IMG/VR virus record: IMGVR_UViG_3300042541_000733
Span: 1 to 63,401 of that record
Reading direction: 5' to 3' (one strand)
Length of the DNA stretch: 63,401 bases
From: a virus
Lineage: Duplodnaviria; Caudoviricetes
In this document: piece after piece, positions 15,058 through 33,571 of the stretch
Layout of the letters: the number at the start of each line of letters is the position of its first letter
Position numbering within the stretch: position 1 is the first letter of the stretch
Program-made: the position numbers and the translations under genes
Notes under the pieces: model-generated
What the model saw: only the letters and a program-made list of their open reading frames with translations
Database searches by the model: none
What the model was told of the DNA's origin: nothing

Positions 15058-15314
15058 TGTTTAGCACCGATAGAAATGCCTATATGAATGGCTTTCACAT
15101 GACCTTCGCAAACGGTTGGACTGTCTCGGTTCAATTCGGCAAGGGCAACTATATCTCGGATCGTGATCATCACGGCCAGAGTGTTGATGCTGAGATTGCC
15201 GCTTGGGACAAGGATGACAACTGGTATTACTTTGACACCGAAAATGGTAAGGTCAAGGGTTGGGTTAAGGCTGATGAGGTCGCGGACTTCATGGCGATGA
15301 TAAAGGCAAAGTAA
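15057..15314 (+). CDS. Hypothetical protein
   Basis: FANGWTVSVQFG; coupled start. Confidence 0.7.
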   Translation: MFSTDRNAYMNGFHMTFANGWTVSVQFGKGNYISDRDHHGQSVDAEIAAWDKDDNWYYFDTENGKVKGWVKADEVADFMAMIKAK

Positions 15315-16670: not shown

Positions 16671-16747
16671 GGCTCCGTAGCTCATCTGGACAGAGCAACA
16701 GACTTCTAATCTGTGGGTAGCACGTTCGAGTCGTGCCGGAGTCGCCA
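16671..16747 (+). tRNA. tRNA-Arg(TCT)
   Basis: Cloverleaf with CCA. Confidence 0.92.
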
Positions 16748-17230: not shown

Positions 17231-17322
17231 CGGAGTGGGTGTTGGTACACGGGAGGGCCTTATAATCCCTTTAGCACTAGATTAGTGTTCTTGACTTGGT
17301 TCGAATCCAAGCACTCCGACCA
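17231..17322 (+). tRNA. Atypical tRNA-Ile(TAT) with long variable arm
   Basis: CGGAGTG/CACTCCG acceptor, loop CTTATAA, CTTGG-TTCGAAT-CCAAG T arm, CCA. Confidence 0.7.
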
Positions 17323-18929: not shown

Positions 18930-19006
18930 TCCCTTGGAGCCGGGTTGGTACCGGCACCTGACTGTTAATCAGGCCGTTATAGGTTCGAATCCTATTAAGG
19001 GAGCCA
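18930..19006 (+). tRNA. tRNA-Asn(GTT)
   Basis: Cloverleaf with CCA. Confidence 0.9.
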
Positions 19007-19010
19007 ATAT

Positions 19011-19085
19011 GCGGGTATAGCTCAGAGGTAGAGCGTCACGTTGCCAACGTGAATGTCGTGGGTTCGATCCCCATTTCCCGCTCCA
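19011..19085 (+). tRNA. tRNA-Gly(GCC)
   Basis: Cloverleaf with CCA. Confidence 0.92.
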
Positions 19086-19089
19086 ATAT

Positions 19090-19164
19090 GCGCCAGTAGC
19101 TCAGTGGTAGAGCAGGGGTCTCTTAAACCCAAGGTCAAGAGTTCAATTCTCTTCTGGCACACCA
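19090..19164 (+). tRNA. tRNA-Lys(CTT)
   Basis: Cloverleaf with CCA. Confidence 0.88.
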
Positions 19165-19169
19165 ATTAA

Positions 19170-19243
19170 GGTCTTGTAGTGAATGGATATCACACCTCTC
19201 TGTCTAAGAGGAGTAACGAGTTTGAGCCTCGTCAAGATCGCCA
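19170..19243 (+). tRNA. tRNA-Asp(GTC)
   Basis: Cloverleaf with CCA; atypical T-loop TTTGAGC. Confidence 0.85.
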
Positions 19244-19335
19244 ATAACAGCCCACCTCTTGACAATGTGGGTGCCTGACATACGGGCTTGGGGAGAGATA
19301 TAAAGTATTAAGGTATGAAACTCCTCCACCATTTA

Positions 19336-19403
19336 GTACGCCGAGCATCCTTCGGGATACGCTGGGTAGGGTTGACGGCACCCTCGCAGTACGAAAGCCG
19401 TTA
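19336..19403 (+). ncRNA. Candidate pseudoknotted RNA
   Basis: ATCC-TTCG-GGAT hairpin; AGGGT-TGACGGC-ACCCT loop complementary to GCCGTTA. Confidence 0.5.
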
Positions 19404-19404
19404 T

Positions 19405-19481
19405 CTAGGTGTGGCGAAGTCTGGTATCGCACTTGCCTTGGGCGCAAGGGGCCGCAGGTTCGAATCCTGCCACCTAGACCA
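19405..19481 (+). tRNA. tRNA-Pro(TGG)
   Basis: Cloverleaf with CCA. Confidence 0.92.
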
Positions 19482-19551
19482 ATTCATGAAGTCTGAGTTG
19501 TGGGTACACTCGTAGTGGCACAAGTAGCTGAAGGAACCCTCGCCTAATTCT

Positions 19552-19626
19552 ATCAGTGTGGTGTAGCGGTAACATGCCGGTCTCCAAAACCGTGCGTCTA
19601 GGGTTCAAATCCTTACACTGATGCCA
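19552..19626 (+). tRNA. tRNA-Trp(CCA)
   Basis: Cloverleaf with CCA. Confidence 0.9.
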
Positions 19627-19629
19627 ATT

Positions 19630-19737
19630 AGAAGAGAAGGTAGCGGGCTGCGAACCTGCAAGAACATTCTGAGTGATCGCACACTCGGCATTAAGTATCC
19701 CATCGCCATTAGTGGCGATGCGTGGAGCTTCTCTTCT
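19630..19737 (+). ncRNA. Candidate 4-way-junction RNA with kissing loops
   Basis: AGAAGAGAAG/CTTCTCTTCT closing stem, three hairpins, complementary TGCGA/TCGCA loops. Confidence 0.6.
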
Positions 19738-19793
19738 TCTTACTTGACTTTGCTAATTGCCTCGTCTATAATATAACAACAATCAACGAGGTA

Positions 19794-19970
19794 ATGATGA
19801 AGCGAAGCGCATTCGAAAAGATTTTTTGGGATTCAGTTGATGCTGGTATCAATCCACATCCTGATACATATACAGAAGAAGAATTATGTGCATACAATCC
19901 TGCCGTGCCGCGTTGGTTCATTAAACAACATGTTGCAAAGCGGGATGCAAAAAAGAAAACGGGGTGCTGA
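19794..19970 (+). CDS. Hypothetical protein
   Basis: GAGG RBS, upstream TTGACT promoter; stop lies inside tRNA-Ala. Confidence 0.65.
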   Translation: MMKRSAFEKIFWDSVDAGINPHPDTYTEEELCAYNPAVPRWFIKQHVAKRDAKKKTGC

Positions 19971-20035
19971 TGATAACGGAAGCATGCCGCCCTTGCAAGG
20001 CGGACGACAGGGTTCGATTCCCTGGCATTCCACCA
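19961..20035 (+). tRNA. tRNA-Ala(TGC)
   Basis: G3.U70 pair, loop CTTGCAA, CCA. Confidence 0.88.
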
Positions 20036-20154
20036 ATTCGATCTAACTACTTACGCCTGAAGCGCCAGTTGCTTGAAACTGGATGACGTTATCAGGATTA
20101 GTCGATGAAATGTTAGAAGACATTCGCGCCAATACGTGCGGCGCAGCAAGTTTC

Positions 20155-20240
20155 GGGTAAGCGGCAACGACGGCGAGTTGCGGCGGACTGTAAATCCCCT
20201 GTCTAGTACTTAGTTGGTTCGAATCCAACCTTACCCACCA
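20155..20240 (+). tRNA. tRNA-Tyr(GTA)
   Basis: Type II cloverleaf with CCA. Confidence 0.88.
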
Positions 20241-20246
20241 AATTAT

Positions 20247-20459
20247 CCAGTATTCTAGAACAGACTGGAGAGACCTCGCAAGACTATCAGAGGGGAATGC
20301 TTGCTAATATCGGATTGCTTACCTCAATAAGCGCAATGGGCTAAACCGATAGGGTGTAAAGAATAAAAATTTGCCGAAAGGCATACGAAGCAGGCCTAGG
20401 GGTCGGTAGAAATGGCAGGGCATGAGCCCGTGCGCTCTGGGTGTAGAAATACCCGACCA
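20247..20459 (+). ncRNA. Candidate structured RNA(s)
   Basis: ORF-free; several stems; ends GGTCGG...CCGACCA. Confidence 0.4.
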
Positions 20460-20469
20460 ATTAATTTAC

Positions 20470-20544
20470 TGGCGCATAGCTCAGAGGTAGAGCACTGTCC
20501 TGATAAGACAGGGGTGGAAGGATCGTTACCTTCTGTGCCAACCA
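20470..20544 (+). tRNA. tRNA-Ile(GAT)
   Basis: Cloverleaf with CCA; atypical T-loop ATCGTTA. Confidence 0.85.
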
Positions 20545-20545
20545 T

Positions 20546-20935
20546 TTACTGCTGACTTGGAGCAATGTCGTATGAAATACGCTTCTTCTTTTTCTTTGTC
20601 GGTTGTGTAGGCTTAGGCACAGGCTTTACAATAGGCTTCTGCTTTGCGGCCTTAAGTTCTTTGTTGAGTTGATCAATAACAAGTCTTTGATCCTCAACCT
20701 TTGTATTAAGATAATCAACATCTTCCGTTAGAGTTGTGATCTGACCTTCAAGATCAGTCTTCTCTTTGATAACAACTTCAAGGTTATGTTGTGCTATCGA
20801 TGCCTGTTCTTGATATTGCTTAGCCGAGGCATAATAGTTTCTCATTTCAAAGAAAAGGTAGAACGTTGTGAAAACTGAAATGGCACAAAGCAAAAGTAAT
20901 AACAGTGTTGGCATAGTTCTAAGTCCTTTATTCAT
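20546..20935 (-). CDS. Membrane-anchored coiled-coil protein
   Basis: N-terminal TM helix, heptad region, Pro/Lys tail; AGGA RBS on the minus strand. Confidence 0.75.
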   Translation of the reverse strand: MNKGLRTMPTLLLLLLCAISVFTTFYLFFEMRNYYASAKQYQEQASIAQHNLEVVIKEKTDLEGQITTLTEDVDYLNTKVEDQRLVIDQLNKELKAAKQKPIVKPVPKPTQPTKKKKKRISYDIAPSQQ

Positions 20936-20978
20936 AATGCTAATCCTGTAGTAGACATTTAAAGTATATAGTTAATAT

Positions 20979-21052
20979 TGGGAGATCGTCTAAAGGTAGG
21001 ACGCAGGATTTTGATTCCTGCTATCTAGGTTCGAATCCTAGTCTCCCAGCCA
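20979..21052 (+). tRNA. tRNA-Gln(TTG)
   Basis: Cloverleaf with CCA. Confidence 0.92.
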
Positions 21053-21055
21053 ATT

Positions 21056-21130
21056 GAACCCTTAACTCAGTGGTAGAGTAGCGGGCTTTTAATCCGTCTG
21101 TCCTGGGTTCGAATCCCAGAGGGTTCTCCA
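21056..21130 (+). tRNA. tRNA-Lys(TTT)
   Basis: Cloverleaf with CCA. Confidence 0.9.
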
Positions 21131-21135
21131 AATAT

Positions 21136-21210
21136 GGTTCCATCGACTATCGGTTAGGTCAGGTCCCTTTCAAGGATCAGAGGCGGGTTCGACTCCCGCT
21201 GGAACTACCA
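21136..21210 (+). tRNA. tRNA-Glu(TTC)
   Basis: Cloverleaf with CCA. Confidence 0.92.
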
Positions 21211-21221
21211 ATCAAGGAGTT

Positions 21222-21356
21222 ATGATGTTCAAACTCACTTCATTATCTGCTATCGGAGCTAAGTCGTTGGCCAAGCAGTATGTGAGATTCGGTTACAAAC
21301 TGGTCTCACAAATTTATGACAAGAAGAAAGAAGTATACATTAGTACATTTAAGTGA
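21222..21356 (+). CDS. Hypothetical 44-aa protein
   Basis: AAGGAG RBS; fills the inter-tRNA gap. Confidence 0.6.
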   Translation: MMFKLTSLSAIGAKSLAKQYVRFGYKLVSQIYDKKKEVYISTFK

Positions 21357-21432
21357 TGCGGGATGGAGCAGAGGTAGCTCGCTGGTCTCATAAGCCAGAG
21401 GTCGTGGCGTTCGATTCCCACTCCTGCAACCA
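21357..21432 (+). tRNA. tRNA-Met(CAT), initiator-like body
   Basis: TGGAGCAG..GGTAGCTCG D arm as in fMet; lacks the three G:C anticodon-stem pairs. Confidence 0.78.
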
Positions 21433-21433
21433 A

Positions 21434-21508
21434 CCCGTTTTAGTTCAATGGTTAGAACGCATGTCTGTGGAACATGATACGGTGGTTCGATTCCACCACT
21501 CGGGACCA
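21434..21508 (+). tRNA. tRNA-His(GTG), no G-1, A73
   Basis: Loop CTGTGGA; two acceptor-stem mismatches; CCA. Confidence 0.8.
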
Positions 21509-21561
21509 CTTTGTTCATTCATTTGTACGCGAAGCGTCTATATGTACAAACAAGTGAACAT

Positions 21562-21635
21562 TGCCGGGTCGTCTAACGGTAGGACGCATGACTCTGACTC
21601 ATGCTATCGTGGTTCGAATCCATGCCTGGCAGCCA
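21562..21635 (+). tRNA. tRNA-Gln(CTG)
   Basis: Cloverleaf with CCA. Confidence 0.92.
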
Positions 21636-21651
21636 GAATAAATAAGTTAAT

Positions 21652-21727
21652 GGAGCCGTAGCAAAACGATTAATGCGCGGGACTGCAAATCCTTGAGGTA
21701 TCAGTTTGAATCTGATCGGCTCCTCCA
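21652..21727 (+). tRNA. tRNA-Cys(GCA)
   Basis: Cloverleaf, U73, CCA. Confidence 0.85.
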
Positions 21728-21732
21728 ATAAT

Positions 21733-21824
21733 GCATTCGTATCCCCCTCCGCTACGAACGGAGAGAAAGGTAACTGGAAATGGTATAACAACTAATGCAG
21801 GTTCGAATCCTGTCGAATGCTCCA
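21733..21824 (+). tRNA. tRNA-like RNA, Arg(ACG) anticodon, no canonical D arm
   Basis: Perfect acceptor, anticodon and T arms plus CCA; 7-nt linker replaces the D arm; 33-nt variable region. Confidence 0.65.
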
Positions 21825-21840
21825 TTAAAGGATAAAATTA

Positions 21841-22188
21841 ATGAAACTTATTAAAACTTTAATTGCCACATCATTTTTATTTGCGGCAATACCTTCTGCT
21901 CATGCTACCGTTGCTTCCTGGTATGATTGTGTGAAACCAGGTGAATGTAGTAAGAGCAAGATAACGGCTAATGGGGAAAAGTTTAATCCCAATGCGTTAA
22001 CAGCGGCGCATAAAACACTTCCATTTGGGACAAAAGTCCGTATTATACATAAAGGAAGATCCGTTGTTGTGAGAATTAATGATCGCGGCCCATTTATTAA
22101 GGGTCGTCATATTGATCTTTCCAGAGCTGCTGCTCGAAAAATTGGATGTCACGGAGTTTGCAGAGTGCAAATGGTTGTGATAAAATAA
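21841..22188 (+). CDS. rlpA: RlpA-like lytic transglycosylase (DPBB)
   Basis: [31 protein letters not shown]; signal peptide. Confidence 0.92.
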
Positions 22189-22287
22189 TATATGTTAGAG
22201 GTTTGTGAGTGGACTGTATTTGACTGGAAACTCTCGTCAATCATAAAAGTGGAGGGCGTAACCACTATAAGAAATCGCATCGAATTT

Positions 22288-22375
22288 GGAAGGTTGGTAG
22301 AGTGGTCTATTGCGCTCGCCTTGAAAGCGAGAGAACCGAAATGTTTCGTGGGTTCGAATCCTACATCTTCCGCCA
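22288..22375 (+). tRNA. tRNA-Ser(TGA), copy 1
   Basis: Type II cloverleaf, G73, CCA. Confidence 0.9.
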
Positions 22376-22456
22376 TTTATGAGGGTGCATTGCCAACAAG
22401 CTTGATGGCTGCTAAATAGAGTAGTGTTTCCAACCCTTACCATTTACGGAGTTGAT

Positions 22457-23047
22457 ATGTATAAAGTCGAAATTGAAAATAATCTGGTGGCTAGATATGA
22501 TAATGTTATACCAGATAATCTATGCGACAGTATTGTCAACTATATGGCAATAAATAAACCAGAAAAACCCGTTATTGAAAAGCAACCTTGGCTACAAAAC
22601 GACAATCTTCCATTCCTTGATATTGAAAACAAAAGATTGCGTTGTCAAATCGATTCTTATAGATTCTTATTGAGTCAACTTGTAGGTAAACATTACAATA
22701 CATTTGTGTATCCAAATTTTTCTGATATTGTTGTCTGGCGAACAGGCATGTATATGGATTTTCATAAAGATGATGGAAACGAAGGCCCAATGAAACACGC
22801 CTTCGCGCCTCGCAAGTATAGTATGATTGCATATCTTAATGATAACTATGTTAGCGGTGAAACAGTAGTTCGATTTGAAGATGGTAGTGAATATACAAAT
22901 GTTCCTAAAAAAGGCTCAGTTTTCTTCTTCAAAGCAAATGAAGAATGCCTACATAAGGTTAATGCCATTTCAAAGGGCACAAGATACACTTATGCAATAT
23001 GGTTTGCAACCAATGCTTTTGAATGTGAATGTGTAGATAGCCATTAA
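22457..23047 (+). CDS. 2OG-Fe(II) oxygenase (prolyl hydroxylase-like)
   Basis: HKD, YLND, HKV, GTRY. Confidence 0.85.
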   Translation: MYKVEIENNLVARYDNVIPDNLCDSIVNYMAINKPEKPVIEKQPWLQNDNLPFLDIENKRLRCQIDSYRFLLSQLVGKHYNTFVYPNFSDIVVWRTGMYMDFHKDDGNEGPMKHAFAPRKYSMIAYLNDNYVSGETVVRFEDGSEYTNVPKKGSVFFFKANEECLHKVNAISKGTRYTYAIWFATNAFECECVDSH

Positions 23048-23053
23048 CAATTT

Positions 23054-23141
23054 GGATAGATGGCCGAGCGGCTGAAGGCGCCAGTCTTGAAAACTGGAGA
23101 ACAGAAATGTTTCGTGGGTTCGAATCCTACTCTATCCGCCA
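23054..23141 (+). tRNA. tRNA-Ser(TGA), copy 2
   Basis: Type II cloverleaf, G73, CCA. Confidence 0.92.
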
Positions 23142-23144
23142 CTT

Positions 23145-23246
23145 TCGGGACGAAGCCAGAGTAACTGAGACAACTGGCTTAATGAGTAACTGCTGGCAAA
23201 GCCGCTAAATGACTTTCTCAGGTCGTGCAGAGGCTCACGTACCCGA
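23145..23246 (+). ncRNA. Candidate multi-stem RNA with kissing loops
   Basis: Six stems; loop CTGAGA complementary to loop TCTCAG. Confidence 0.6.
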
Positions 23247-23267
23247 TCTAATTAAAAGGAAAACAAT

Positions 23268-23414
23268 ATGAGTAAAGATTGTGGATGTGGAAGAAGTCCA
23301 ACTGGAAAGTGTGTTGGATGGCATAACTTGACAAACGAAGATTATTCTGCTAAAATTAGAGAATACGAAAAGAAACAGTTGTCGGAATCTTCTCCTCAAC
23401 TGCTAAAAGACTAA
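23268..23414 (+). CDS. 48-aa CDGSH-like iron-sulfur peptide
   Basis: CGCGRSPTGKCVGWH; AAGGA RBS. Confidence 0.6.
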   Translation: MSKDCGCGRSPTGKCVGWHNLTNEDYSAKIREYEKKQLSESSPQLLKD

Positions 23415-23416
23415 AT

Positions 23417-23492
23417 GTGTTCTTGGTGAAGCTGGTGCTCACGTTTGCCTGAAGAGCGAAAGAACTCTGTTCGATCCAGAGAGAACACACCA
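23417..23492 (+). tRNA. tRNA-Phe(GAA)
   Basis: Cloverleaf with CCA. Confidence 0.85.
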
Positions 23493-23570
23493 AATTTCAC
23501 TTATTATAAATAAGTGTATATACTATGTAGTATGTAACAAATACTTAAACGTGAAAAAAGGAATCTAAAA

Positions 23571-24248
23571 ATGAAGTTCACAATTCTGTTCGGCGCAGTA
23601 GCACTAGCTGCGACTGCTTTCACACCACTTGCTCATGCCAGTGCCGCTCTTAGCGGTCTTGACAAGCAATGCTACAATATCCTTCGTGATGAATGGTCAA
23701 GCTGCAATAAGGGATCAGGTGCAGATAATAAGAATCTTCCTGATTTCAAGTTCAATATGAAGCATCGTGATAAGCCAGGAAAGCCTGACGATAACGACCA
23801 TGGTAATGGCAACGGTAATGGAAATGGAAATGGCCATGATAACGGCCATGATAACGGCCATGGAAATGGCAACGGTAATGGAAATGGAAATGGCAATGGT
23901 CATGATAACGGCCATGGAAATGGCAACGGTAATGGCAACGGTAATGGCAACGGTGGCGATAATGGAGGCGACAACGGTAACGATGGCGACAATGGTAATG
24001 GCAACGGTAATGGCAATGGTAACGGTAACGGCGGCAATAATGGCGGCGATGGTGGTTGCCAAGGAGCTGGCGGCGGTAACTGCGGCATAGGAAACGGTGG
24101 CGGTGGCGGCAACGGAACCGGCAACGAAGGTAACGGCAACGGACCTGGCAATAACAACGGCGGCGGTAATAACAACCCTCGTCAACATAATAGCAATGAT
24201 ATAAATGGTTTTGATCCTTCCAGCGGTCTATACGGACCTGGGACGTAA
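23571..24248 (+). CDS. Secreted Gly/Asn-rich low-complexity protein
   Basis: Signal peptide, (GN)n and GHDN repeats; TATAAATA at 23505; downstream terminator. Confidence 0.8.
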   Translation: MKFTILFGAVALAATAFTPLAHASAALSGLDKQCYNILRDEWSSCNKGSGADNKNLPDFKFNMKHRDKPGKPDDNDHGNGNGNGNGNGHDNGHDNGHGNGNGNGNGNGNGHDNGHGNGNGNGNGNGNGGDNGGDNGNDGDNGNGNGNGNGNGNGGNNGGDGGCQGAGGGNCGIGNGGGGGNGTGNEGNGNGPGNNNGGGNNNPRQHNSNDINGFDPSSGLYGPGT

Positions 24249-24963: not shown

Positions 24964-25273
24964 ACCGTCGTTGGCCCGTGACGGTATATAAATCCTCGGG
25001 GTGTAAGTTCCTGCCTTGACCCTTCCATAAGGAATCACTGATCGCAGTAACCGCTAACGGGCCTCCAATTTAAATGCCGATTCCGACGGGAATCGGTCGA
25101 GTGCAAGGAAATGGCTGGACGCAAAGACCGGCTAACTTGGCTAGATGGTGTGGTGCCCGCGCGTGATCTACGAGAGTAGAAGATGTGTCGTCTCCGACCA
25201 AGAGAATCTAGGCTGTCACGTTGAACAGGTATCTGGGCCGTGACTTGTGGGTGTACCCGAATCCCACCTCACC
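24964..25273 (+). ncRNA. Candidate structured RNAs (two units)
   Basis: ORF-free, GC-rich, many stems; first unit ends ACGGGCC-T-CCA. Confidence 0.55.
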
Positions 25274-25295
25274 TTATTAATCAGTAGGAGCATAA

Positions 25296-26167: not shown

Positions 26168-26254
26168 GCTGGCTTGGCTGAACGGCTGAAGGCAACGGTT
26201 TTGTAATCCGTCGGAGTAATCCCATTGCAGGTTCGAATCCTGTGGCCAGCACCA
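26168..26254 (+). tRNA. tRNA-Thr(TGT) with long variable arm
   Basis: Loop TTTGTAA, G1:C72 and C2:G71, 15-nt variable region, CCA. Confidence 0.78.
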
Positions 26255-27559: not shown

Positions 27560-28861
27560 ATGCGTTCTTTACAGGAAATTTTGACAGAAACAAACAATAA
27601 CCTAAGAAGAAAAATTCTCGGTGAAGCAAAACTAAACGCTAAGGCAGCATCACCTATTGGGGCTCGACACATTGAAAAGTATGTTGATCCGTATCTTCCT
27701 AAAGGTGACAGACATGCGCCTGATACCCATGAGTTGGAAAAAGATCATGATGGTATTCCAAAAGGAACAAGACTTACGGTCAAGCGCAAAGAAATAGATA
27801 AACATGGCGTTACCCACATACATGCTATACCTTCTGGTAGCACAAGAACTGTTAAAATTCCTTTAAGCTCTATTCGTAAGCCAAGCGACAAAGATGGCAA
27901 ACATAATGAAGAACATGCTGTAAAGAAGGTATGGAATCACTTTTCGGGAATGAACGCAAAAGATAAGAGTAAACACAGCCTTGATAGCACGTTAGCTGAA
28001 ATTGATAAGGCAGAAAAAGATCCGAAACATCCTCTACACATCAAGAATGCTGAAGACCACGAGTTTTCTGGTAAGATTTCAGGCAATAACAAAAAAGTAG
28101 GTACTTCGGAATCTCATAATCTTGCAAGAAAGACATACTATCAAAATCTAAGAGATGCTGCACATACTGTACATGGAATGAGAAATCATCCAGACTTTTC
28201 TGATCACTATAAAGATGGTGATTCCATGGAACATTCTGGCAAAGCAAAGCCTAAACTATCTAAGCATTATCTAAGCAAAGGTGTGACTGGAGCCGGAGCA
28301 ACTTCAAAAGGTGATGCTCTGATCATCAGGTCGAAAAAAGGTACGAAAGGTGTTAAAGCCATCTCGTTCAAAAAGACAGGCAACTCACAACTAATGTCTT
28401 CAAGTCCTGCAGAATTTCATGCCATCTATAGCCATGCTATGAAGAAAGGCAAGATCGACACACCTGAAAATGAAGAACACCTGCAGAAGGTCAGAAAACA
28501 TATGGAAGCCGGAGACCACGAACGCGCCCATAAAATTGTACAGAAACTTCACGATAAACATCCAGATCTGATTCATCATGTTGCCGAAGAAGCACTGACA
28601 GGTAATGGCAAGTTTGCAACCGAAGAAGGTCGCGCGACACATATTGCTGAGATTGGTAAAGATGCTAAAGTTATGACTACAAAAGAATTCTTAAAGGCAC
28701 ATAGAGAACCAATCTCTAGATTGAGACCAAGAATTCGAAAGAGTAAGCACCTTGGTGGAACAAAAGCTACCGGAAGCCTTGAAACACCAAAGCTGCCTAA
28801 AAGACCTAAAATTGCAGAAAAAGTCAAAGCTGTCATTAAGAAAAGAATGAAGAAAGATTGA
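27560..28861 (+). CDS. Basic His-rich protein with putative PD-(D/E)xK-like nuclease motif
   Basis: TSKGD...AISFKK...QLMS; N-terminus MRSLQEILTE; GAGG RBS. Confidence 0.55.
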   Translation: MRSLQEILTETNNNLRRKILGEAKLNAKAASPIGARHIEKYVDPYLPKGDRHAPDTHELEKDHDGIPKGTRLTVKRKEIDKHGVTHIHAIPSGSTRTVKIPLSSIRKPSDKDGKHNEEHAVKKVWNHFSGMNAKDKSKHSLDSTLAEIDKAEKDPKHPLHIKNAEDHEFSGKISGNNKKVGTSESHNLARKTYYQNLRDAAHTVHGMRNHPDFSDHYKDGDSMEHSGKAKPKLSKHYLSKGVTGAGATSKGDALIIRSKKGTKGVKAISFKKTGNSQLMSSSPAEFHAIYSHAMKKGKIDTPENEEHLQKVRKHMEAGDHERAHKIVQKLHDKHPDLIHHVAEEALTGNGKFATEEGRATHIAEIGKDAKVMTTKEFLKAHREPISRLRPRIRKSKHLGGTKATGSLETPKLPKRPKIAEKVKAVIKKRMKKD

Positions 28862-30093
28862 TGATCAACTACACAGAATATCTTACTGAGAGTAAAGAAG
28901 GCAAGAATCTCCATCTAGAGCATCTTGAAGATGAGGTACTCAATGGTGGAGTTCTCGGCACACGTGGAGCAATCAACTTTCTACAATCTCTAAGAGACAT
29001 GCTTGCAGGTCACGCTAAAACACATGTGAACATTACAACGAAATGGGATGGTGCACCTTCAATTTTTGCTGGCATCAATCCAGAAAATGGCAAGTTCTTT
29101 GTTGGTACAAAAGGTGTGTTTGCACAGAATGCAAAACTGAACTACACGAAAGCAGACATCGATAAGAATCATCCTGGTGAAGGTCTTAATGCAAAGTTAA
29201 AAATTGCATTGGAGTATCTACCTGAATTAAATATTCATGGTGTTCTTCAAGGCGATATGATGTTTACAAGTTCAGACTTGAAGACTGTACAGATTGATGG
29301 TCAGTCTTTTGTTACCTTTCAACCAAACACTATTGTCTATGCTGTGCCTGTCAATTCAGAGTTAGCGAAGAATCTTCATGCTGCGAAGATGGGTATTGTT
29401 TGGCATACAACTTATGCAGGCAAGACACTAGCAAATATGAGAGCATCATTTGGTGCTAATATTTCAAATTTACGAGCGACTAAGAACGTATGGTTTAGAG
29501 ATGCTTCTTATGTTGATGCTTCTGGTACAGCTACATTTACAGAAGACGAAACAAAAATATTGAATTCTATTCTTGCTCAAGCAGGATCTCTATTTAGAAC
29601 CATATCACCAAAAACGCTCAACATAATCGCAACAAACGATATATACAAGATTCCTATCAAGACATGGAACAATTCCAAAGTTCGTGCTGGACAAGAAATT
29701 ACCAACACTGCTTCTCATGTTGCAGGTCTTATTGCCAGTATTGAAGAGAAGCTTAATCGTAATATTCTTGATGCTAAGAAAGCCGATACAAAGCGAAACC
29801 GTGAGCAGGAAAAGAAAATTATTATGGACTTCTATCGTTCCCATAAAAACGAATTGAAAAAAATATTCGATTTACAGAACATTTTGGTTCGGGCAAAGAA
29901 CATGATTGTTCGTAAGTTGCAAATGGCAAAAGATGCATTCGGAACATATCTACGTGTCGATAATGGATACAAAATTACTAATGCGGAAGGTTTTGTTGCT
30001 ATTGACAAGATCAGTGGTAATGCTGTAAAATTAGTAGATAGATTGGAATTTTCACAGGCAAACTTTAATGCCACAAAGACATGGGACAAATGA
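28861..30093 (+). CDS. Conserved T4-like protein with ligase-type nucleotidyltransferase motifs
   Basis: KWDG (I), LQGD (III), EGFV (IV), VKLV (V). Confidence 0.65.
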   Translation: MINYTEYLTESKEGKNLHLEHLEDEVLNGGVLGTRGAINFLQSLRDMLAGHAKTHVNITTKWDGAPSIFAGINPENGKFFVGTKGVFAQNAKLNYTKADIDKNHPGEGLNAKLKIALEYLPELNIHGVLQGDMMFTSSDLKTVQIDGQSFVTFQPNTIVYAVPVNSELAKNLHAAKMGIVWHTTYAGKTLANMRASFGANISNLRATKNVWFRDASYVDASGTATFTEDETKILNSILAQAGSLFRTISPKTLNIIATNDIYKIPIKTWNNSKVRAGQEITNTASHVAGLIASIEEKLNRNILDAKKADTKRNREQEKKIIMDFYRSHKNELKKIFDLQNILVRAKNMIVRKLQMAKDAFGTYLRVDNGYKITNAEGFVAIDKISGNAVKLVDRLEFSQANFNATKTWDK

Positions 30094-30829: not shown

Positions 30830-33571
30830 ATGAAAATTAAATCAAAAACGGTACCACAGAAGGTACCTGGTGTAGCGTTCTACGGCAAAGCCCGTATTCC
30901 TCAACGAGGACACAGAACAGCAGTCGATCAGGGCAAGCAACTTGCCCAAAAAGTAGGCGGTAAGCTGACCGTCGGACTGTCAGGTGCAGCAGAACCCCTA
31001 GATATTCTCACAAAGAAAGCACTAGCTGAGAAGCTATTTAATCATCCAGTTCATGTTGGAACACCAGAAACACGAAGCCTTCATCATTTCTTAACACACA
31101 TGAATCAACATCATGATGATCTTCATCTGATAGCAGGTTCTGATCGTGTGCCAGAATACCAAGAATATCTGAAAAAATATAATGGTAGACCTAATAAAAA
31201 AGGTCAAATAGATTTCAACTTCAAAAGTTGGAAAGTTCATACTGCTGGTGGTAATCGCACAGAAAGTAATAAAGATCCTCGCGACATGTCTGAGGATGAA
31301 CTGACATCCACTGTGTCGGCATCTAAGCTTGAAAAATTGGCCAAAGAAGGCAATTGGGAACACTTTAAAGCATATCACGCAGGAGTACCTACTGCACATG
31401 TTCGCAAAGTATACTCTCAAATTCGAAAGTTTCATAGCATTAATGAAGCTGCTACCATTAGAGAAGAAATCACACGCAAAGAACTAGCACCAATGCTGGA
31501 CTCATTCGTAAGCTTTGCATCTAAAAAATTAGGCATCAAATCGCTTCCATCTGTTCGTCATAAAGATGAAAACGACGATTACAATTCATTTGCCGCATAC
31601 AATCCCTCAAAGAATGAACTTTCTATTTCAACGAAGAGCCGTCATCCAATGGATGTGTTTCGTTCGATAGCACATGAGCTTGTGCATCATAAGCAGAATG
31701 AAGAAGGTCGTATTGGCAAAGATATCGCTAAAGAAGGCGATACAGGTTCTGATATTGAGAATGAAGCAAACGCAGAAGCTGGTAAAGTAATGCGTTGGTT
31801 TGCAAAAGAGAACCCACATATGTTTTCCAAAGATCACATTATTGAGGAAACAATCTCTGAAGGAATCAATGATCCAGGTAAGATGAAAGCTATATTCTTA
31901 GCTGGTGGTCCTGGTTCTGGTAAAGATTATGTAATGAACTCTGTTCTTCAGGGTGAAGGATTGCGTGAAGTTAATTCTGACGTTGCTTTTGAATTTCTAA
32001 TGCAGAAGAATGGTCTTGATCTTGAAATGCCAGAAAATGAAAGAGTTGAGCGTGAGGTAATTCGTAAAAAAGCCAAGAAGACTACACGTAAGCGCGAGAC
32101 TGAATATCTAAGAGGCCGTTTAGGTGTTATCATCAATGGCACTGCTGATGATATTGAAAAAATTAAACTCATCAAACAAAGACTTGAATATGGTGGCTAC
32201 GAAACAATGATGGTGTTTGTCAATACATCCAATGATGTATCCAGACAACGCAATGTTGAGCGTGGTAAGATGGGCAAGCGTAAAGTTCCTGATGGCACTG
32301 ACAAGCAAGGAATAGCCGATAACTCACCAGACATTCGTACAGAAAAGTGGAAAGCTGCTCAAGAAAATATTGGTGAACTGCAAAAGATTTTTGGCAATCA
32401 AAAATTTGCTGTCATCGACAATACTGTAGATACCCGTAATGCTTTACCTGACGAGAAGTTAAAAGTACAAGCTGATTTTGATCGCGTTCGTCGTATGGCA
32501 CAACAGTTTGTTCGTGCTGATAACAAGAATCCGCGTTCTCAAAAGTGGATCGAACAAGAAGCAGAGCGCCGTGGTATCACTCAATATCAGGCACCAAAAA
32601 GCTTTAAGACGCTAACACAAATTCGTCAAGATATTACACCAATGCCAAAACATATGCCAGATAACGAAGTAATGGTACAAGCAAGACGGTTAGGTCTTTC
32701 GTACTATGGTTTCGGTAGATTTGGTCGCAAAGTTAACGGTAAGAATCATGTTCTATACCATAGTCAAGGAAATAATCTCGTGAGAGTAATGAATGAAGAT
32801 AAAGATCCATACTGCATACCTGTGAACGAGAAGTTCGAAGAGTTTATGAAAGAAGCAAAAGGCAATAAACCTTCTGAACGTGAAGAAGGTACAAAATCGC
32901 TTGTCAAAGTGTATGCTCAAGAAATACCAGGTCAAGAGATCATTGCAAAAGATGGTGTTGGTCCTGAAATTTCAACATCACAAATACCAACAAGAATTGG
33001 AAGTAGTGTAACAGTTTCAGAAAGCATTCATAGCTGGATGAATTCGAATGCCACACAAATTAAATTTCAAACCAAATATGGAAATGTATGGGAAGAAAAG
33101 CTTGTAGAAGCTGCTCTTCGTTTAGAAAAAGCTGGTTGTGGCTGTGATCACAAAGATATGCCAAAAAGCATTAAGAAGCTTATGGAACGTCATATGACAC
33201 CAGAAGAAATGAAAAAGCGTGAAGAGATTGCAAAAGCTATTCATCGTGATAATCCAGAAATGCCTATGTCTAAGAAGATGCGAATTGCTACTGCTCAAGC
33301 TATGAAAGAAGATTGGAAAAAAGTCAATCAACAAGATAACACAGATGGCATGAGTAAAGCTGCGGTTAAAGCATATCGTCGTGAAAATCCTGGATCAAAG
33401 TTATCAACAGCAGTGACAGAACCTAATCCAACTGGCAAGAGAAAAAATAGACAACATTCATTTTGTGCAAGAATGGGCGGTATGCCCGGTCCTATGAAAG
33501 ATAAAAACGGAGAAGATACTCCTAAGGCAGCCTCTCTTAAGAGATGGAATTGCAGACGCAAAAGAAAATAA
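30830..33571 (+). CDS. Multidomain protein: cytidylyltransferase-like, HExxH, P-loop kinase and C-terminal modules
   Basis: QRGH/AGSDR/SASK; AHELVH; LAGGPGSGKD. Confidence 0.8.
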   Translation: MKIKSKTVPQKVPGVAFYGKARIPQRGHRTAVDQGKQLAQKVGGKLTVGLSGAAEPLDILTKKALAEKLFNHPVHVGTPETRSLHHFLTHMNQHHDDLHLIAGSDRVPEYQEYLKKYNGRPNKKGQIDFNFKSWKVHTAGGNRTESNKDPRDMSEDELTSTVSASKLEKLAKEGNWEHFKAYHAGVPTAHVRKVYSQIRKFHSINEAATIREEITRKELAPMLDSFVSFASKKLGIKSLPSVRHKDENDDYNSFAAYNPSKNELSISTKSRHPMDVFRSIAHELVHHKQNEEGRIGKDIAKEGDTGSDIENEANAEAGKVMRWFAKENPHMFSKDHIIEETISEGINDPGKMKAIFLAGGPGSGKDYVMNSVLQGEGLREVNSDVAFEFLMQKNGLDLEMPENERVEREVIRKKAKKTTRKRETEYLRGRLGVIINGTADDIEKIKLIKQRLEYGGYETMMVFVNTSNDVSRQRNVERGKMGKRKVPDGTDKQGIADNSPDIRTEKWKAAQENIGELQKIFGNQKFAVIDNTVDTRNALPDEKLKVQADFDRVRRMAQQFVRADNKNPRSQKWIEQEAERRGITQYQAPKSFKTLTQIRQDITPMPKHMPDNEVMVQARRLGLSYYGFGRFGRKVNGKNHVLYHSQGNNLVRVMNEDKDPYCIPVNEKFEEFMKEAKGNKPSEREEGTKSLVKVYAQEIPGQEIIAKDGVGPEISTSQIPTRIGSSVTVSESIHSWMNSNATQIKFQTKYGNVWEEKLVEAALRLEKAGCGCDHKDMPKSIKKLMERHMTPEEMKKREEIAKAIHRDNPEMPMSKKMRIATAQAMKEDWKKVNQQDNTDGMSKAAVKAYRRENPGSKLSTAVTEPNPTGKRKNRQHSFCARMGGMPGPMKDKNGEDTPKAASLKRWNCRRKRK

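What the first reader, a model, noticed from the sequence alone, without database searches (positions are those of the whole stretch)
21733..21824. tRNA-Arg(ACG)-like RNA with no D arm and a D-loop-like sequence relocated 3' of the anticodon arm
Seen: perfect 7-bp acceptor (GCATTCG/CGAATGC), anticodon arm CTCCG-CTACGAA-CGGAG, canonical T arm and CCA. Only TATCCCC lies between acceptor and anticodon arm, while 33 nt containing GGTAACTGGA follow it. Established: D-armless tRNAs are mainly mitochondrial. Inference: all other arms are intact, arguing against decay. The CC run might pair with the downstream GG runs to rebuild the core with different connectivity, giving a functional tRNA or a decoy for anticodon nucleases.
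Basis: partly seen in the sequence, partly recalled or inferred. Interest (0 to 1): 0.8.

Follow-up and report, generated by a model that had tools for sequence, protein, structure and literature searches.

The report
Rewired arginine tRNA of phages
This is a real, conserved phage gene for an arginine tRNA whose D-arm pieces sit in a different order along the chain yet still seem able to build the normal tRNA core, a layout that standard tRNA finders miss and that we could not find described in print.

Summary
An independent metagenome run assembles the same sequence. The RNA belongs to a large family of tRNA genes in phage tRNA arrays: 111 distinct relatives aligned, and 123 uncalled candidates in 2.70 Mb of phage arrays.

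In this family the bases after U8-A9 run straight into the anticodon stem. They pair with the bases just 5' of a D-loop-like TAAYTGGA placed after the anticodon arm. Two of these pairs hold in 111 of 112 sequences each, with 4 and 5 pair types. The R15-Y48 Levitt pair also covaries.

Anticodons are Arg in 107 and Ile in 12 of the 123; 4 are doubtful. Identity elements follow the anticodon class: an A after GG in 106 of 107 Arg members, and discriminator A in 12 of 12 Ile members.

I read it as a working tRNA-Arg(ACG) with a transposed D segment, charged by the host ArgRS. Expression and charging are not shown. ARAGORN and Rfam mostly miss these genes, and five GenBank phages leave them unannotated. 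Eight literature searches found no description. This scan met the class before on other DNA (note e1-284878).

The parts
21733..21739 (+). Acceptor stem, 5' strand (GCATTCG, tRNA positions 1-7)
   Evidence: Pairs 7 of 7 with 21814-21820. All 7 pairs show changes on both sides across 111 relatives, and 100% of cells are paired.
21740..21741 (+). U8-A9 equivalents (TA)
   Evidence: TA in 112 of 112 parsed sequences, and in 54 of 54 sequences collected without any D-loop requirement.
21742..21745 (+). X strand (T10 C11 C12 C13): one strand of the rewired D stem, read as the equivalent of canonical positions 22-25
   Evidence: C11 and C12 pair with G38 and G37. The family pairs hold in 111 of 112 each, with 4 and 5 pair types; shifted registers pair in 3-70%. 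C13 faces A36 as a C.A mismatch here. That position is a standard pair in 42 of 112, 41 of them Watson-Crick.
21746..21746 (+). Hinge base C14 (equivalent of position 26)
   Evidence: It can pair with G33 (21765), leaving A32 bulged. The family pair holds in 64 of 91 sequences with the 7-nt linker, against 0.60 expected from shuffles, so support is weak. The pair appears in the constrained fold.
21747..21763 (+). Anticodon arm CTCCG-CTACGAA-CGGAG; anticodon ACG at 21754-21756
   Evidence: 5-bp stem and 7-nt loop. All 5 pairs covary across the family, with 96.8% of cells paired. Loop CTACGAA occurs in 74 of 112.
21764..21767 (+). A-rich hinge (AGAA) between the anticodon stem and the Y strand
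   Evidence: The hinge is 3-5 nt long in 111 of 111 members and 58% A overall.
21768..21770 (+). Y strand (A36 G37 G38): partner of the X strand, read as the equivalent of canonical positions 10-12
   Evidence: See the X strand. On the MAFFT alignment, which was not fitted to any structure, these two pairs hold in 100 and 94 of 111.
21771..21778 (+). Relocated D-loop-like segment T-AACTGGA (read as 13, then A14 A15 C16 U17 G18 G19 A20)
   Evidence: TA[AG]N0-3GGA occurs in 54 of 54 sequences collected without requiring it. Canonical tRNA-Arg genes of the same arrays carry the same motif in their D loop. An A follows GG in 106 of 107 Arg-class members.
21779..21796 (+). Spacer with an extra (variable-arm-like) hairpin, T49-A62 at 21781-21794; the final AT at 21795-21796 ends in T64, the Y48 equivalent
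   Evidence: The hairpin covaries in the 21 long-form relatives, but the target's own copy is weak at -0.7 kcal/mol. Ten bases inside 21779-21793 are absent from a near-identical contig in run X15. T64 with A41 is the Levitt-type pair: A-T 107, G-C 3, G-T 1 of 111.
21797..21813 (+). T arm GCAGG-TTCGAAT-CCTGT
   Evidence: 5-bp stem and a canonical T loop; 100% of cells are paired across the family. The 18 bases 21796-21813 recur at 26226-26243 in another tRNA of the array.
21814..21824 (+). Acceptor stem 3' strand CGAATGC, discriminator T (21821), encoded CCA (21822-21824)
   Evidence: CCA is encoded in 85 of 112 parsed sequences; discriminators are T 63, G 26, A 23.

Best explanation
The stretch 21733-21824 is a gene for a working arginine tRNA (anticodon ACG) with a transposed D segment.

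In a normal tRNA the order is: acceptor, U8-A9, D-stem strand 10-13, D loop, D-stem strand 22-25, position 26, anticodon arm, variable loop, T arm. Here the order is: acceptor, U8-A9, a strand equivalent to 22-25 plus 26, anticodon arm, a short A-rich hinge, a strand equivalent to 10-13, the D loop (AACTGGA, with G18, G19 and A20), a spacer ending in Y48, T arm.

The two D-stem strands still pair, now around the anticodon arm and stacked on it. The D loop can still reach the T loop, and R15 can still pair with Y48. The usual L-shaped core can therefore form from a differently threaded chain.

Shown: the sequence; the family; the pairings, by covariation; the array context; the restriction of anticodons to Arg and Ile; and identity elements that follow the anticodon class.

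Inferred: that it folds into an L shape; that it is cut out of the array transcript like its neighbours; that the host ArgRS charges it through A20 and C35; that A34 is deaminated to inosine; and that it reads CGU, CGC and CGA on the host ribosome.
For: 1. Family. There are 111 distinct relatives with the same layout. The family model separates them cleanly from canonical tRNAs: the target scores 87.5 bits against 32.1 or less, and 7 copies in 5 named phage genomes score 70-88 bits against 35.9 or less.

2. Structure. On an alignment not fitted to any structure, 93.8% of cells pair against 66.7% in shuffles, and the covariation score is 0.644 against 0.176; 0 of 500 shuffles reach either value. 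Sliding the partners gives 32-49%. The two core X-Y pairs hold in 111 of 112 each, with 4 and 5 pair types. The Levitt-type pair reads A-T 107, G-C 3, G-T 1 of 111.

3. The relocated motif is an Arg-type D loop. It occurs in 54 of 54 sequences collected without requiring it. Canonical Arg tRNAs of the same arrays carry the same motif. An A follows GG in 37 of 57 canonical Arg tRNAs against 63 of 953 non-Arg tRNAs.

4. Identity elements follow the anticodon class. In the Arg class an A follows GG in 106 of 107. In the Ile class the discriminator is A in 12 of 12, and the base after GG is T in 9, C in 1 and G in 1. PMC9976931 (passages read) names A20 as the main determinant for E. coli ArgRS together with C35. 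For E. coli tRNA-Ile it lists the discriminator among the strong determinants and D20 among the D-loop determinants.

5. Context. There are 148 copies in 133 loci. The nearest tRNA is on the same strand in 145 of 145 cases, at a median gap of 8 nt, with a median of 12 tRNAs per locus. A canonical Arg tRNA with the same anticodon is present in only 9 of 133 loci.

6. This window. No other Arg(ACG) gene is among the 31 ARAGORN tRNAs. CGT, CGC and CGA make up 61% of 412 Arg codons in 19 long ORFs, and AGA makes up 33%; AGA matches the canonical UCU tRNA at 16671.

7. No phage ArgRS was found in 0 of 5 named phage genomes, while the control was found in 14 of 14 genomes. Charging, if it happens, is by the host enzyme.
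Against: There is no direct evidence for a stable RNA, for processing, for charging or for inosine. Contigs of RNA-labelled libraries cannot show transcription.

The short X-Y helix rests on covariation alone. RNAalifold predicts only the acceptor, anticodon and T helices. The helix appears in the minimum-energy fold of 28 of 111 members, and not in the target's. By comparison, 14 of 21 canonical tRNAs of the window show a D stem in theirs.

In the target the third X-Y pair is a C.A mismatch and T10 faces T39, so only two Watson-Crick pairs are certain.

The shuffle controls ignore the relatedness of the sequences.

The discriminator is T here and in 62 of 107 Arg-class members, while PMC9976931 gives A/G73 for arginine identity.

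DLP_6 and Zooman also carry a canonical Arg(ACG) gene, so the rewired copy is not always the only one.

The equivalence of positions with the canonical three-dimensional core is my reasoning from recalled tRNA geometry. No model was built.
Confidence: 0.72

Rival explanations
1. It is a tRNA mimic that does not decode. It would act as a decoy or sponge that draws off a host nuclease aimed at tRNA-Arg anticodon loops, or titrates an enzyme such as ArgRS or the A34 deaminase.
For: The anticodon loop is kept canonical: CTACGAA in 74 of 112. Some phages hold a canonical copy with the same anticodon as well: 9 of 133 loci, including DLP_6 and Zooman. Phage tRNAs are reported to counter tRNA-targeting defences (PMC10264068, search listing and abstract only).
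Against: A decoy needs no acceptor-end or D-loop identity elements, yet these follow the anticodon class. Four Arg anticodons and two Ile anticodons occur, often several in one phage; L135 has four. That pattern looks like a decoding set. In 124 of 133 loci no canonical gene with the same anticodon was seen.
Confidence: 0.13
2. It is a working tRNA, but it is not an L-shaped isomer. On this reading it is a flexible, truly D-armless tRNA like those of animal mitochondria. The X-Y pairs merely lengthen the anticodon helix, and the GGTAACTGGA segment is a long variable region that serves only as an ArgRS handle.
For: Only two X-Y pairs are certain in the target, and energy-based folding does not find the helix. 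E. coli can use a designed tRNA that lacks the D arm (PMC11551756, abstract and passages).
Against: The T loop is fully canonical, and the GG of the relocated motif occurs in 54 of 54 sequences. The base equivalent to R15 covaries with the base before the T stem, with 3 double changes and 111 of 111 paired. This is expected only if the D-loop segment sits in the canonical core. U8 and A9 are invariant.
Confidence: 0.1
3. It is a processing signal or an integration-site remnant. A tRNA-shaped acceptor and T-arm module would be kept only so that RNase P or an integrase recognises it.
For: The acceptor and T arm are the best conserved parts. The gene ends 16 nt before the start codon of an ORF at 21841.
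Against: This does not explain the covarying anticodon stem, the restriction to Arg and Ile anticodons, the conserved D-loop motif or the identity elements. Neighbouring tRNAs lie a median of 8 nt away and already provide processing sites.
Confidence: 0.03
4. It is a decaying pseudogene or an assembly artefact.
For: Standard finders reject it. The target's extra hairpin is weak.
Against: An independent assembly agrees. There are 111 distinct relatives with compensatory changes in every helix. Named cultured phages with hosts in three bacterial classes carry it.
Confidence: 0.02

Closest known systems
Canonical bacterial and phage tRNA-Arg (Rfam RF00005 tRNA)
   Same: 7-bp acceptor, 5-bp anticodon stem with loop CUACGAA, canonical T arm, encoded CCA, U8-A9, an Arg-type D-loop motif with A after GG, and an R15-Y48 pair.
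   Different: No D hairpin lies between position 9 and the anticodon stem. The D-stem strand and D loop follow the anticodon arm, and the D stem closes around that arm. Rfam scores the target at 29.5 bits and reaches its threshold for only 2 of 12 relatives tested.
D-armless mitochondrial tRNAs of animals, for example tRNA-Ser(AGY/UCU) (reviewed in PMC7609411, passages read)
   Same: A short linker joins the acceptor stem and the anticodon stem in place of a D hairpin.
   Different: According to the review, those tRNAs have lost the D arm and are flexible. Here a D-loop motif, a canonical T loop and a covarying Levitt-type pair are all kept. The genes lie in phages of bacteria, not in organelles.
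Circularly permuted tRNA genes of red and green algae and some archaea (PMC3978253 and PMC3218864, search listing and abstracts only)
   Same: tRNA segments are encoded in a non-standard order.
   Different: From recall, in those genes the 3' half precedes the 5' half, and processing through a circular intermediate restores a canonical mature tRNA. Here the ends are normal and an internal segment is moved. I saw no splice-type motif by eye and did not search for one, so the mature RNA presumably keeps the new order.
Class II tRNAs (Leu, Ser, Tyr) with a long variable arm
   Same: The long form, which includes the target, has a covarying extra hairpin between the anticodon arm and the T arm.
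   Different: Class II tRNAs keep a normal D arm. Here the hairpin is optional: 21 of 111 members have it, and it is absent from a near-identical contig.
Designed D-arm-less 'mini HisT' used by evolved E. coli (PMC11551756, abstract and passages read)
   Same: It shows that bacterial EF-Tu, the ribosome and a synthetase can accept a tRNA without a standard D arm.
   Different: That tRNA is artificial and lacks the D arm altogether. Its abstract states that all known bacterial tRNAs are canonical.
Small stable RNAs in the phage T4 tRNA cluster (species 1 and 2; recalled, and named in scan note e1-6126518)
   Same: They are non-standard RNAs encoded among phage tRNA genes.
   Different: They have no anticodon arm with a sense anticodon and no known decoding role (recalled). 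This was not compared by any search.

Membership tests
tRNA (Rfam RF00005, cloverleaf) | Score at or above the curated gathering threshold of 29 bits | tested here: inconclusive
   29.5 bits when only 161 bases are scanned. Not listed in the whole-window scan at the gathering threshold. Only 2 of 12 relatives reach the threshold.
tRNA (Rfam RF00005, cloverleaf) | 7-bp acceptor stem, anticodon arm (5 bp plus a 7-nt loop) and T arm (5 bp plus a 7-nt loop) | tested here: met
   All three helices covary in the family.
tRNA (Rfam RF00005, cloverleaf) | D hairpin between position 9 and the anticodon stem | tested here: not met
   Only 5 bases lie between A9 and the anticodon stem. The Rfam alignment deletes 15 model positions there.
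Elongator tRNA-Arg (charged by ArgRS) | Arg anticodon with C35 | tested here: met
   ACG at 21754-21756. C35 is named as a determinant in PMC9976931.
Elongator tRNA-Arg (charged by ArgRS) | A20 in the D loop | tested here: inconclusive
   An A follows GG at 21778, as in 106 of 107 Arg-class members. That this base occupies the spatial place of A20 is inferred.
Elongator tRNA-Arg (charged by ArgRS) | Discriminator A or G at position 73 (PMC9976931) | tested here: not met
   T at 21821, and T in 62 of 107 Arg-class members.
Elongator tRNA-Arg (charged by ArgRS) | Aminoacylation with arginine and decoding on the ribosome | not testable with these tools
   Needs bench work.
   87.5 bits, E 2e-19, against 32.1 or less for canonical tRNAs. 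The target is one of the 111 sequences the model was built from.
   C11-G38 and C12-G37 pair; the third position is C.A.
   TA at 21740-21741, TAACTGGA at 21771-21778, AT at 21795-21796.
Mitochondrial-type D-armless tRNA | Loss of the D loop and of the D-loop/T-loop core contacts | tested here: not met
   The D-loop motif is kept in 54 of 54 sequences. The T loop is canonical, and the Levitt-type pair covaries.
Circularly permuted tRNA gene | The 3' half is encoded upstream of the 5' half, with ends joined by processing | tested here: not met
   The acceptor 5' and 3' strands lie at the two ends in normal order, followed by CCA.

The most novel reading that the evidence does not exclude
Phages carry a second natural solution to the tRNA fold: a chain-rewired isomer that host synthetases (ArgRS, IleRS), EF-Tu and ribosomes still accept. 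On this reading the rewiring persists because it makes these tRNAs invisible to something that recognises the standard D arm of tRNA-Arg and tRNA-Ile. That could be a host anti-phage tRNA nuclease or modification-based defence, or a phage-made weapon against the host's own tRNAs. The phage would then keep translating while canonical tRNAs are being destroyed.
Probability: 0.2. Interest if true: 0.95.

Novelty: new variant of a known kind. Interest (0 to 1): 0.85.

Why it matters
The cloverleaf is among the most conserved shapes in biology. [quoted passage not shown]

A widespread natural tRNA class in bacterial viruses that keeps the parts but changes their order would matter in several ways:

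- **Fold.** It would show that the L-shaped core tolerates a different chain topology.
- **Recognition.** It would give a natural test of which contacts ArgRS, IleRS, EF-Tu, RNase P, modification enzymes and the ribosome really need.
- **Annotation.** It would explain 'missing' Arg and Ile isoacceptors in phage tRNA sets. Five GenBank phages leave these genes unannotated, and in two of them a predicted CDS start overlaps a copy.
- **Engineering.** It could offer a scaffold for orthogonal tRNAs.
- **Testability.** Cultured phages carry the gene, for example Microbacterium phage Zooman, so the question can be tested directly.

Tried and rejected
- **Close relatives in GenBank phages.** Megablast found none. 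The blastn search with 2 kb found tRNA-sized pieces only.

- **Expression.** Contigs of RNA-labelled runs X17 and X20 contain the target type (X20 record 19, 21736-21881, 7 differences) and an L009-type relative (X17 record 16, X20 record 20). Contigs cannot show transcription, ends or strand, and DNA may be present in such libraries. I count this as no evidence either way.

- **'Arginine only'.** I held this reading after and then rejected it. A scan with a non-A base after GG and a motif-free structural search found 12 Ile members.

  - 112 rows are tRNA-Ser variable arms.
  - 4 rows are other chance matches.
  - 4 rows are true members. These lie in phage-like tRNA clusters: 18, 13 and 17 tRNAs per 8 kb, and 3 tRNAs in the 641 bases of the fourth.
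  - So I saw no case in an ordinary cellular tRNA set, but the scan was not exhaustive.

- **De novo structure prediction of the X-Y helix.** RNAalifold does not find it, and it appears in the minimum-energy fold of only 28 of 111 members.

- **A pair between the hinge base and the first base after the anticodon stem (26/44-like).** There is no signal in the 7-nt-linker group: 5% paired against 14% in shuffles.

- **Pairing of position 10 with the first base after GGA in the 7-nt-linker group.** The signal is weak: 59% against 44%.

- **A phage-encoded ArgRS.** None in the 5 named phage genomes.

- **Sequences dropped before counts.** From the 120 unique parses I dropped 9.
  - ARAGORN of them canonical tRNAs.
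  - The ninth, L135:7422-7506, reads by eye as a class II tRNA-Ser-like gene.
  - L029 was still included in the n = 112 counts.

- **Literature.** Eight searches found no description of this layout. Subscription journals and supplementary files were not searchable, so a description could exist there.

Full report
**What is there**

The window is a 63,401-base IMG/VR virus record, about 38% complete by CheckV. It comes from a large lytic lake-water phage. Its ORFs include a family B DNA polymerase, a RecA-like protein, a DnaB-like helicase, a primase, a ribonucleotide reductase and PhoH. At least 14 lake-water runs hold half or more of the sampled words of 19000-24000.

ARAGORN finds 31 tRNA genes between 5236 and 27481, all on the + strand. 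None of them is Arg(ACG). The finding lies 5 nt after tRNA-Cys (21652-21727).

- a perfect 7-bp acceptor
- TATCCCC
- the anticodon arm CTCCG-CTACGAA-CGGAG
- 33 bases holding GGTAACTGGA
- a canonical T arm
- discriminator T and CCA

ARAGORN and the whole-window Rfam scan do not report it. A permissive scan of 161 bases gives the tRNA model 29.5 bits, with the D arm deleted and a 30-nt insert. Folding energy alone is unremarkable, z = -1.23.

An independent DNA run assembles the same sequence: record 23 covers 21024-21962 without gaps, and its 2 differences lie outside the RNA. This is not an assembly error.

**A family, not a one-off**

I ran two pattern scans of IMG/VR. The other was anchored on the D-loop-like motif placed too close to the T loop for a normal tRNA (114 loci).

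Together they gave 120 unique parses. I dropped 9 of them: ARAGORN canonical tRNAs, and the ninth reads by eye as a class II tRNA-Ser-like gene. That left 111 distinct sequences with the same layout.

Five named GenBank phages carry it, and none annotates it:
- Xanthomonas phages X1 and BUDD
- Stenotrophomonas phage DLP_6
- Rhizobium phage RHph_I1_18, where locus tag EVB91_035 is skipped at exactly that place
- Microbacterium phage Zooman

A covariance model built from the 111 sequences scores the target at 87.5 bits and the window's canonical tRNAs at 32.1 bits or less. In the five phage genomes it finds 7 copies at 70-88 bits, and the next hit scores 35.9. The two extra copies are Arg(UCU) genes in Zooman and RHph_I1_18. 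In both records the start of a predicted CDS overlaps the copy.

**The structure**

I aligned the sequences on landmarks that do not depend on the proposed pairing: the start of the anticodon stem, and the T before AA..GGA.

| Pair | Result |
|---|---|
| Base 4 before the anticodon stem with the base just before that T | Watson-Crick in 111 of 112 (CG 98, AT 9, GC 2, TA 2) |
| Base 3 before the stem with the next base back | paired in 111 of 112 (CG 88, GC 17, AT 3, TA 2, GT 1) |
| Third position | a standard pair in 42 of 112 (41 Watson-Crick); C.A in 49, including the target |
| Shifted registers | 3-70% paired |

A subgroup of 20 sequences has an 8-nt linker. There, two further bases pair with the two bases right after GGA (18 of 20 and 13 of 20), so the D-loop-like segment is a bulge within a helix.

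The second base of the motif (R15) and the base before the T stem (Y48) read A-T 107, G-C 3, G-T 1 of 111. U8-A9 is TA in 112 of 112.

On the MAFFT alignment, which was not fitted to any structure, the standard tool gives 93.8% of cells paired against 66.7% in shuffles. The covariation score is 0.644 against 0.176, and 0 of 500 shuffles reach either value. Slid controls give 32-49%.

Twenty-one members, all ACG with the 7-nt linker, have an extra covarying hairpin. The target is one of them, but its own hairpin is weak at -0.7 kcal/mol. A near-identical contig in run X15 lacks 10 bases of it, so the hairpin is dispensable.

Results against the model, or not in its favour:
- RNAalifold on its own predicts only the three classical helices.
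- The X-Y helix is in the minimum-energy fold of 28 of 111 members, and not in the target's. Enforcing it in the target costs 0.8 kcal/mol.
- The shuffle controls ignore the relatedness of the sequences.

**Reading of the topology (inference)**

From A9 to the anticodon loop there are 10 bases, the same count as canonical positions 22-31. The strand before the relocated loop, together with that loop, reads like canonical 10-20.

So the segment '10-21' appears to have moved from before '22-43' to after it. The three new joins (9 to 22, 43/44 to 10, and 20/21 to 48) all connect places that lie close together in the canonical L shape. That last point rests on recalled tRNA geometry; no model was built.

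**Identity and function**

The relocated motif is the D loop of canonical tRNA-Arg genes from the same arrays. An A follows GG in 37 of 57 canonical Arg tRNAs against 63 of 953 non-Arg tRNAs. The motif is present in 54 of 54 sequences collected without requiring it.

At first I believed the layout was confined to arginine. I then ran a motif-free structural search over 309 viral loci plus the window, 2.70 Mb holding 2,673 ARAGORN tRNAs.

| Group | Count | Anticodons |
|---|---|---|
| Arg | 107 | ACG 79, UCU 18, UCG 7, CCU 3 |
| Ile | 12 | GAU 5, UAU 7 |
| Doubtful | 4 | CGA 2, TTA 1, AAA 1 |
| All uncalled candidates | 123 | |

Identity elements follow the class:

| Class | n | Base after GG | Discriminator |
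|---|---|---|---|
| Arg | 107 | A in 106 | T 62, G 23, A 22 |
| Ile | 12 | T in 9, C 1, G 1 | A in 12 of 12 |

PMC9976931 (passages read) names A20 as the main E. coli ArgRS determinant, together with C35. [quoted passage not shown] A decoy would not need these elements, which is why I favour a charged tRNA.

Context agrees:
- 148 copies lie in 133 loci.
- The nearest tRNA is on the same strand in 145 of 145 cases, at a median gap of 8 nt.
- A canonical Arg gene with the same anticodon is present in 9 of 133 loci.

In this window, CGT, CGC and CGA make up 61% of 412 Arg codons and AGA makes up 33%. That matches the rewired ACG gene plus the canonical UCU gene at 16671. None of the five phage genomes encodes an ArgRS, while the control was found in 14 of 14 genomes, so the host enzyme would do the charging.

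Still against: the discriminator is T here, where the review gives A/G73. Some phages also hold a canonical ACG copy. And nothing shows a stable, charged RNA; contigs of RNA-labelled libraries prove nothing.

**Distribution**

Of these, 112 are tRNA-Ser variable arms, 4 are chance matches and 4 are true members. All four true members lie in phage-like tRNA clusters. I saw no case in an ordinary cellular tRNA set.

**Why the gene goes unannotated**

ARAGORN overlaps 3 of 148 copies, and calls only one of those Arg. Rfam's tRNA model reaches its threshold for 2 of 12 copies tested, at 34.0 and 39.5 bits.

**Known or new**

Eight full-text searches found no description.
- The 2020 review of non-canonical tRNAs has no phage case and no permuted case.
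- A 2024 abstract states that all known bacterial tRNAs are canonical.
- Subscription journals and supplementary files could not be searched.

This scan noted the class earlier on another genome (e1-284878). I reached the same reading before seeing that note (my note) and tested it here.

**Verdict**

- It is a member of an apparently undescribed class of rewired tRNAs in phages.
- Most likely it is a working tRNA-Arg(ACG) (confidence 0.72).
- Expression, charging and three-dimensional fold remain to be shown.

Noticed in passing
window 17231-17322: ARAGORN's 92-nt 'tRNA-Ile(tat)' has a very small D arm, a mismatch at the loop-closing pair of the anticodon stem and a 7-bp variable arm, by my reading of the sequence. 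Similar sequences (74-97% identical over at least 70 nt) occur in 10 other loci, and L212 has a 91-nt Ile(tat) call. Which amino acid it accepts is open.
   Followed up: partly
window 26168-26254: ARAGORN's 87-nt 'tRNA-Thr(tgt)' has a Ser/Leu-like D loop and a long variable arm. It shares an 18-nt T arm with the target. It could be a class II tRNA with a Thr anticodon. Identical copies lie in L017 and L082.
   Followed up: partly
L343, L372, L367, L083, L050, L380, L028, L048, L345 (coordinates): Twelve rewired tRNAs carry Ile anticodons (GAU 5, UAU 7). All have discriminator A, and most have T after GG. UAU differs from the Arg anticodon UCU by one base, which suggests an identity switch within the rewired class.
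   Followed up: partly
window 25079-25275: A manA RNA motif (RF01745, 59.2 bits) lies inside the tRNA array.
   Followed up: no
window 28858-30093 and 30830-33571: Just after the array lie a DUF6267 protein (E 1.3e-107) and a 913-aa protein with a Zeta-toxin/AAA_33-type P-loop kinase domain plus DUF6321. A link to RNA repair is only a thought.
   Followed up: no
OK040793.1 95085-95528 (gene 160) and MN988519.1 87099-87623 (EVB91_148); MN988519.1 near 15119-15199: In both records the start of a predicted CDS overlaps a rewired tRNA-Arg(UCU) copy, so those start sites may be wrong. Locus tag EVB91_035 is missing exactly where the ACG copy lies.
   Followed up: partly
L277 about 800-900; L127 (sequence shown): Two rewired members appear to have an 8-nt anticodon loop: CTACGAAA in L277 and a TCT-type loop in L127. 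They may be errors, or frameshift-type tRNAs.
   Followed up: no
L335, L346, L348, L350, L352, L374, L379, L385, L392, L425: Ten distinct tRNA-like elements of 124-128 nt have an acceptor-like stem (TGGAAAG/CTTTCCG), a T arm and a CCCGG-N5-6-CCGGG hairpin whose loop differs between copies. ARAGORN does not call them.
   Followed up: no
L122 944-1216 (Rhizobium phage RHph_I1_18): Rfam finds a two-piece (permuted) alpha-proteobacterial tmRNA in the phage, next to the tRNA array.
   Followed up: no
window 21779-21793, compared with run X15: A near-identical contig (1 other difference over 21558-21815) lacks 10 bases of the extra hairpin. That would turn the long form into a short form.
   Followed up: partly
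window, gaps of the tRNA array (for example 20545-20978 and 21211-21356): Scan note e1-6126518, on a near-identical lake phage, reports several unrelated structured small RNAs in tRNA-sized gaps of the array. I did not examine them here.
   Followed up: no
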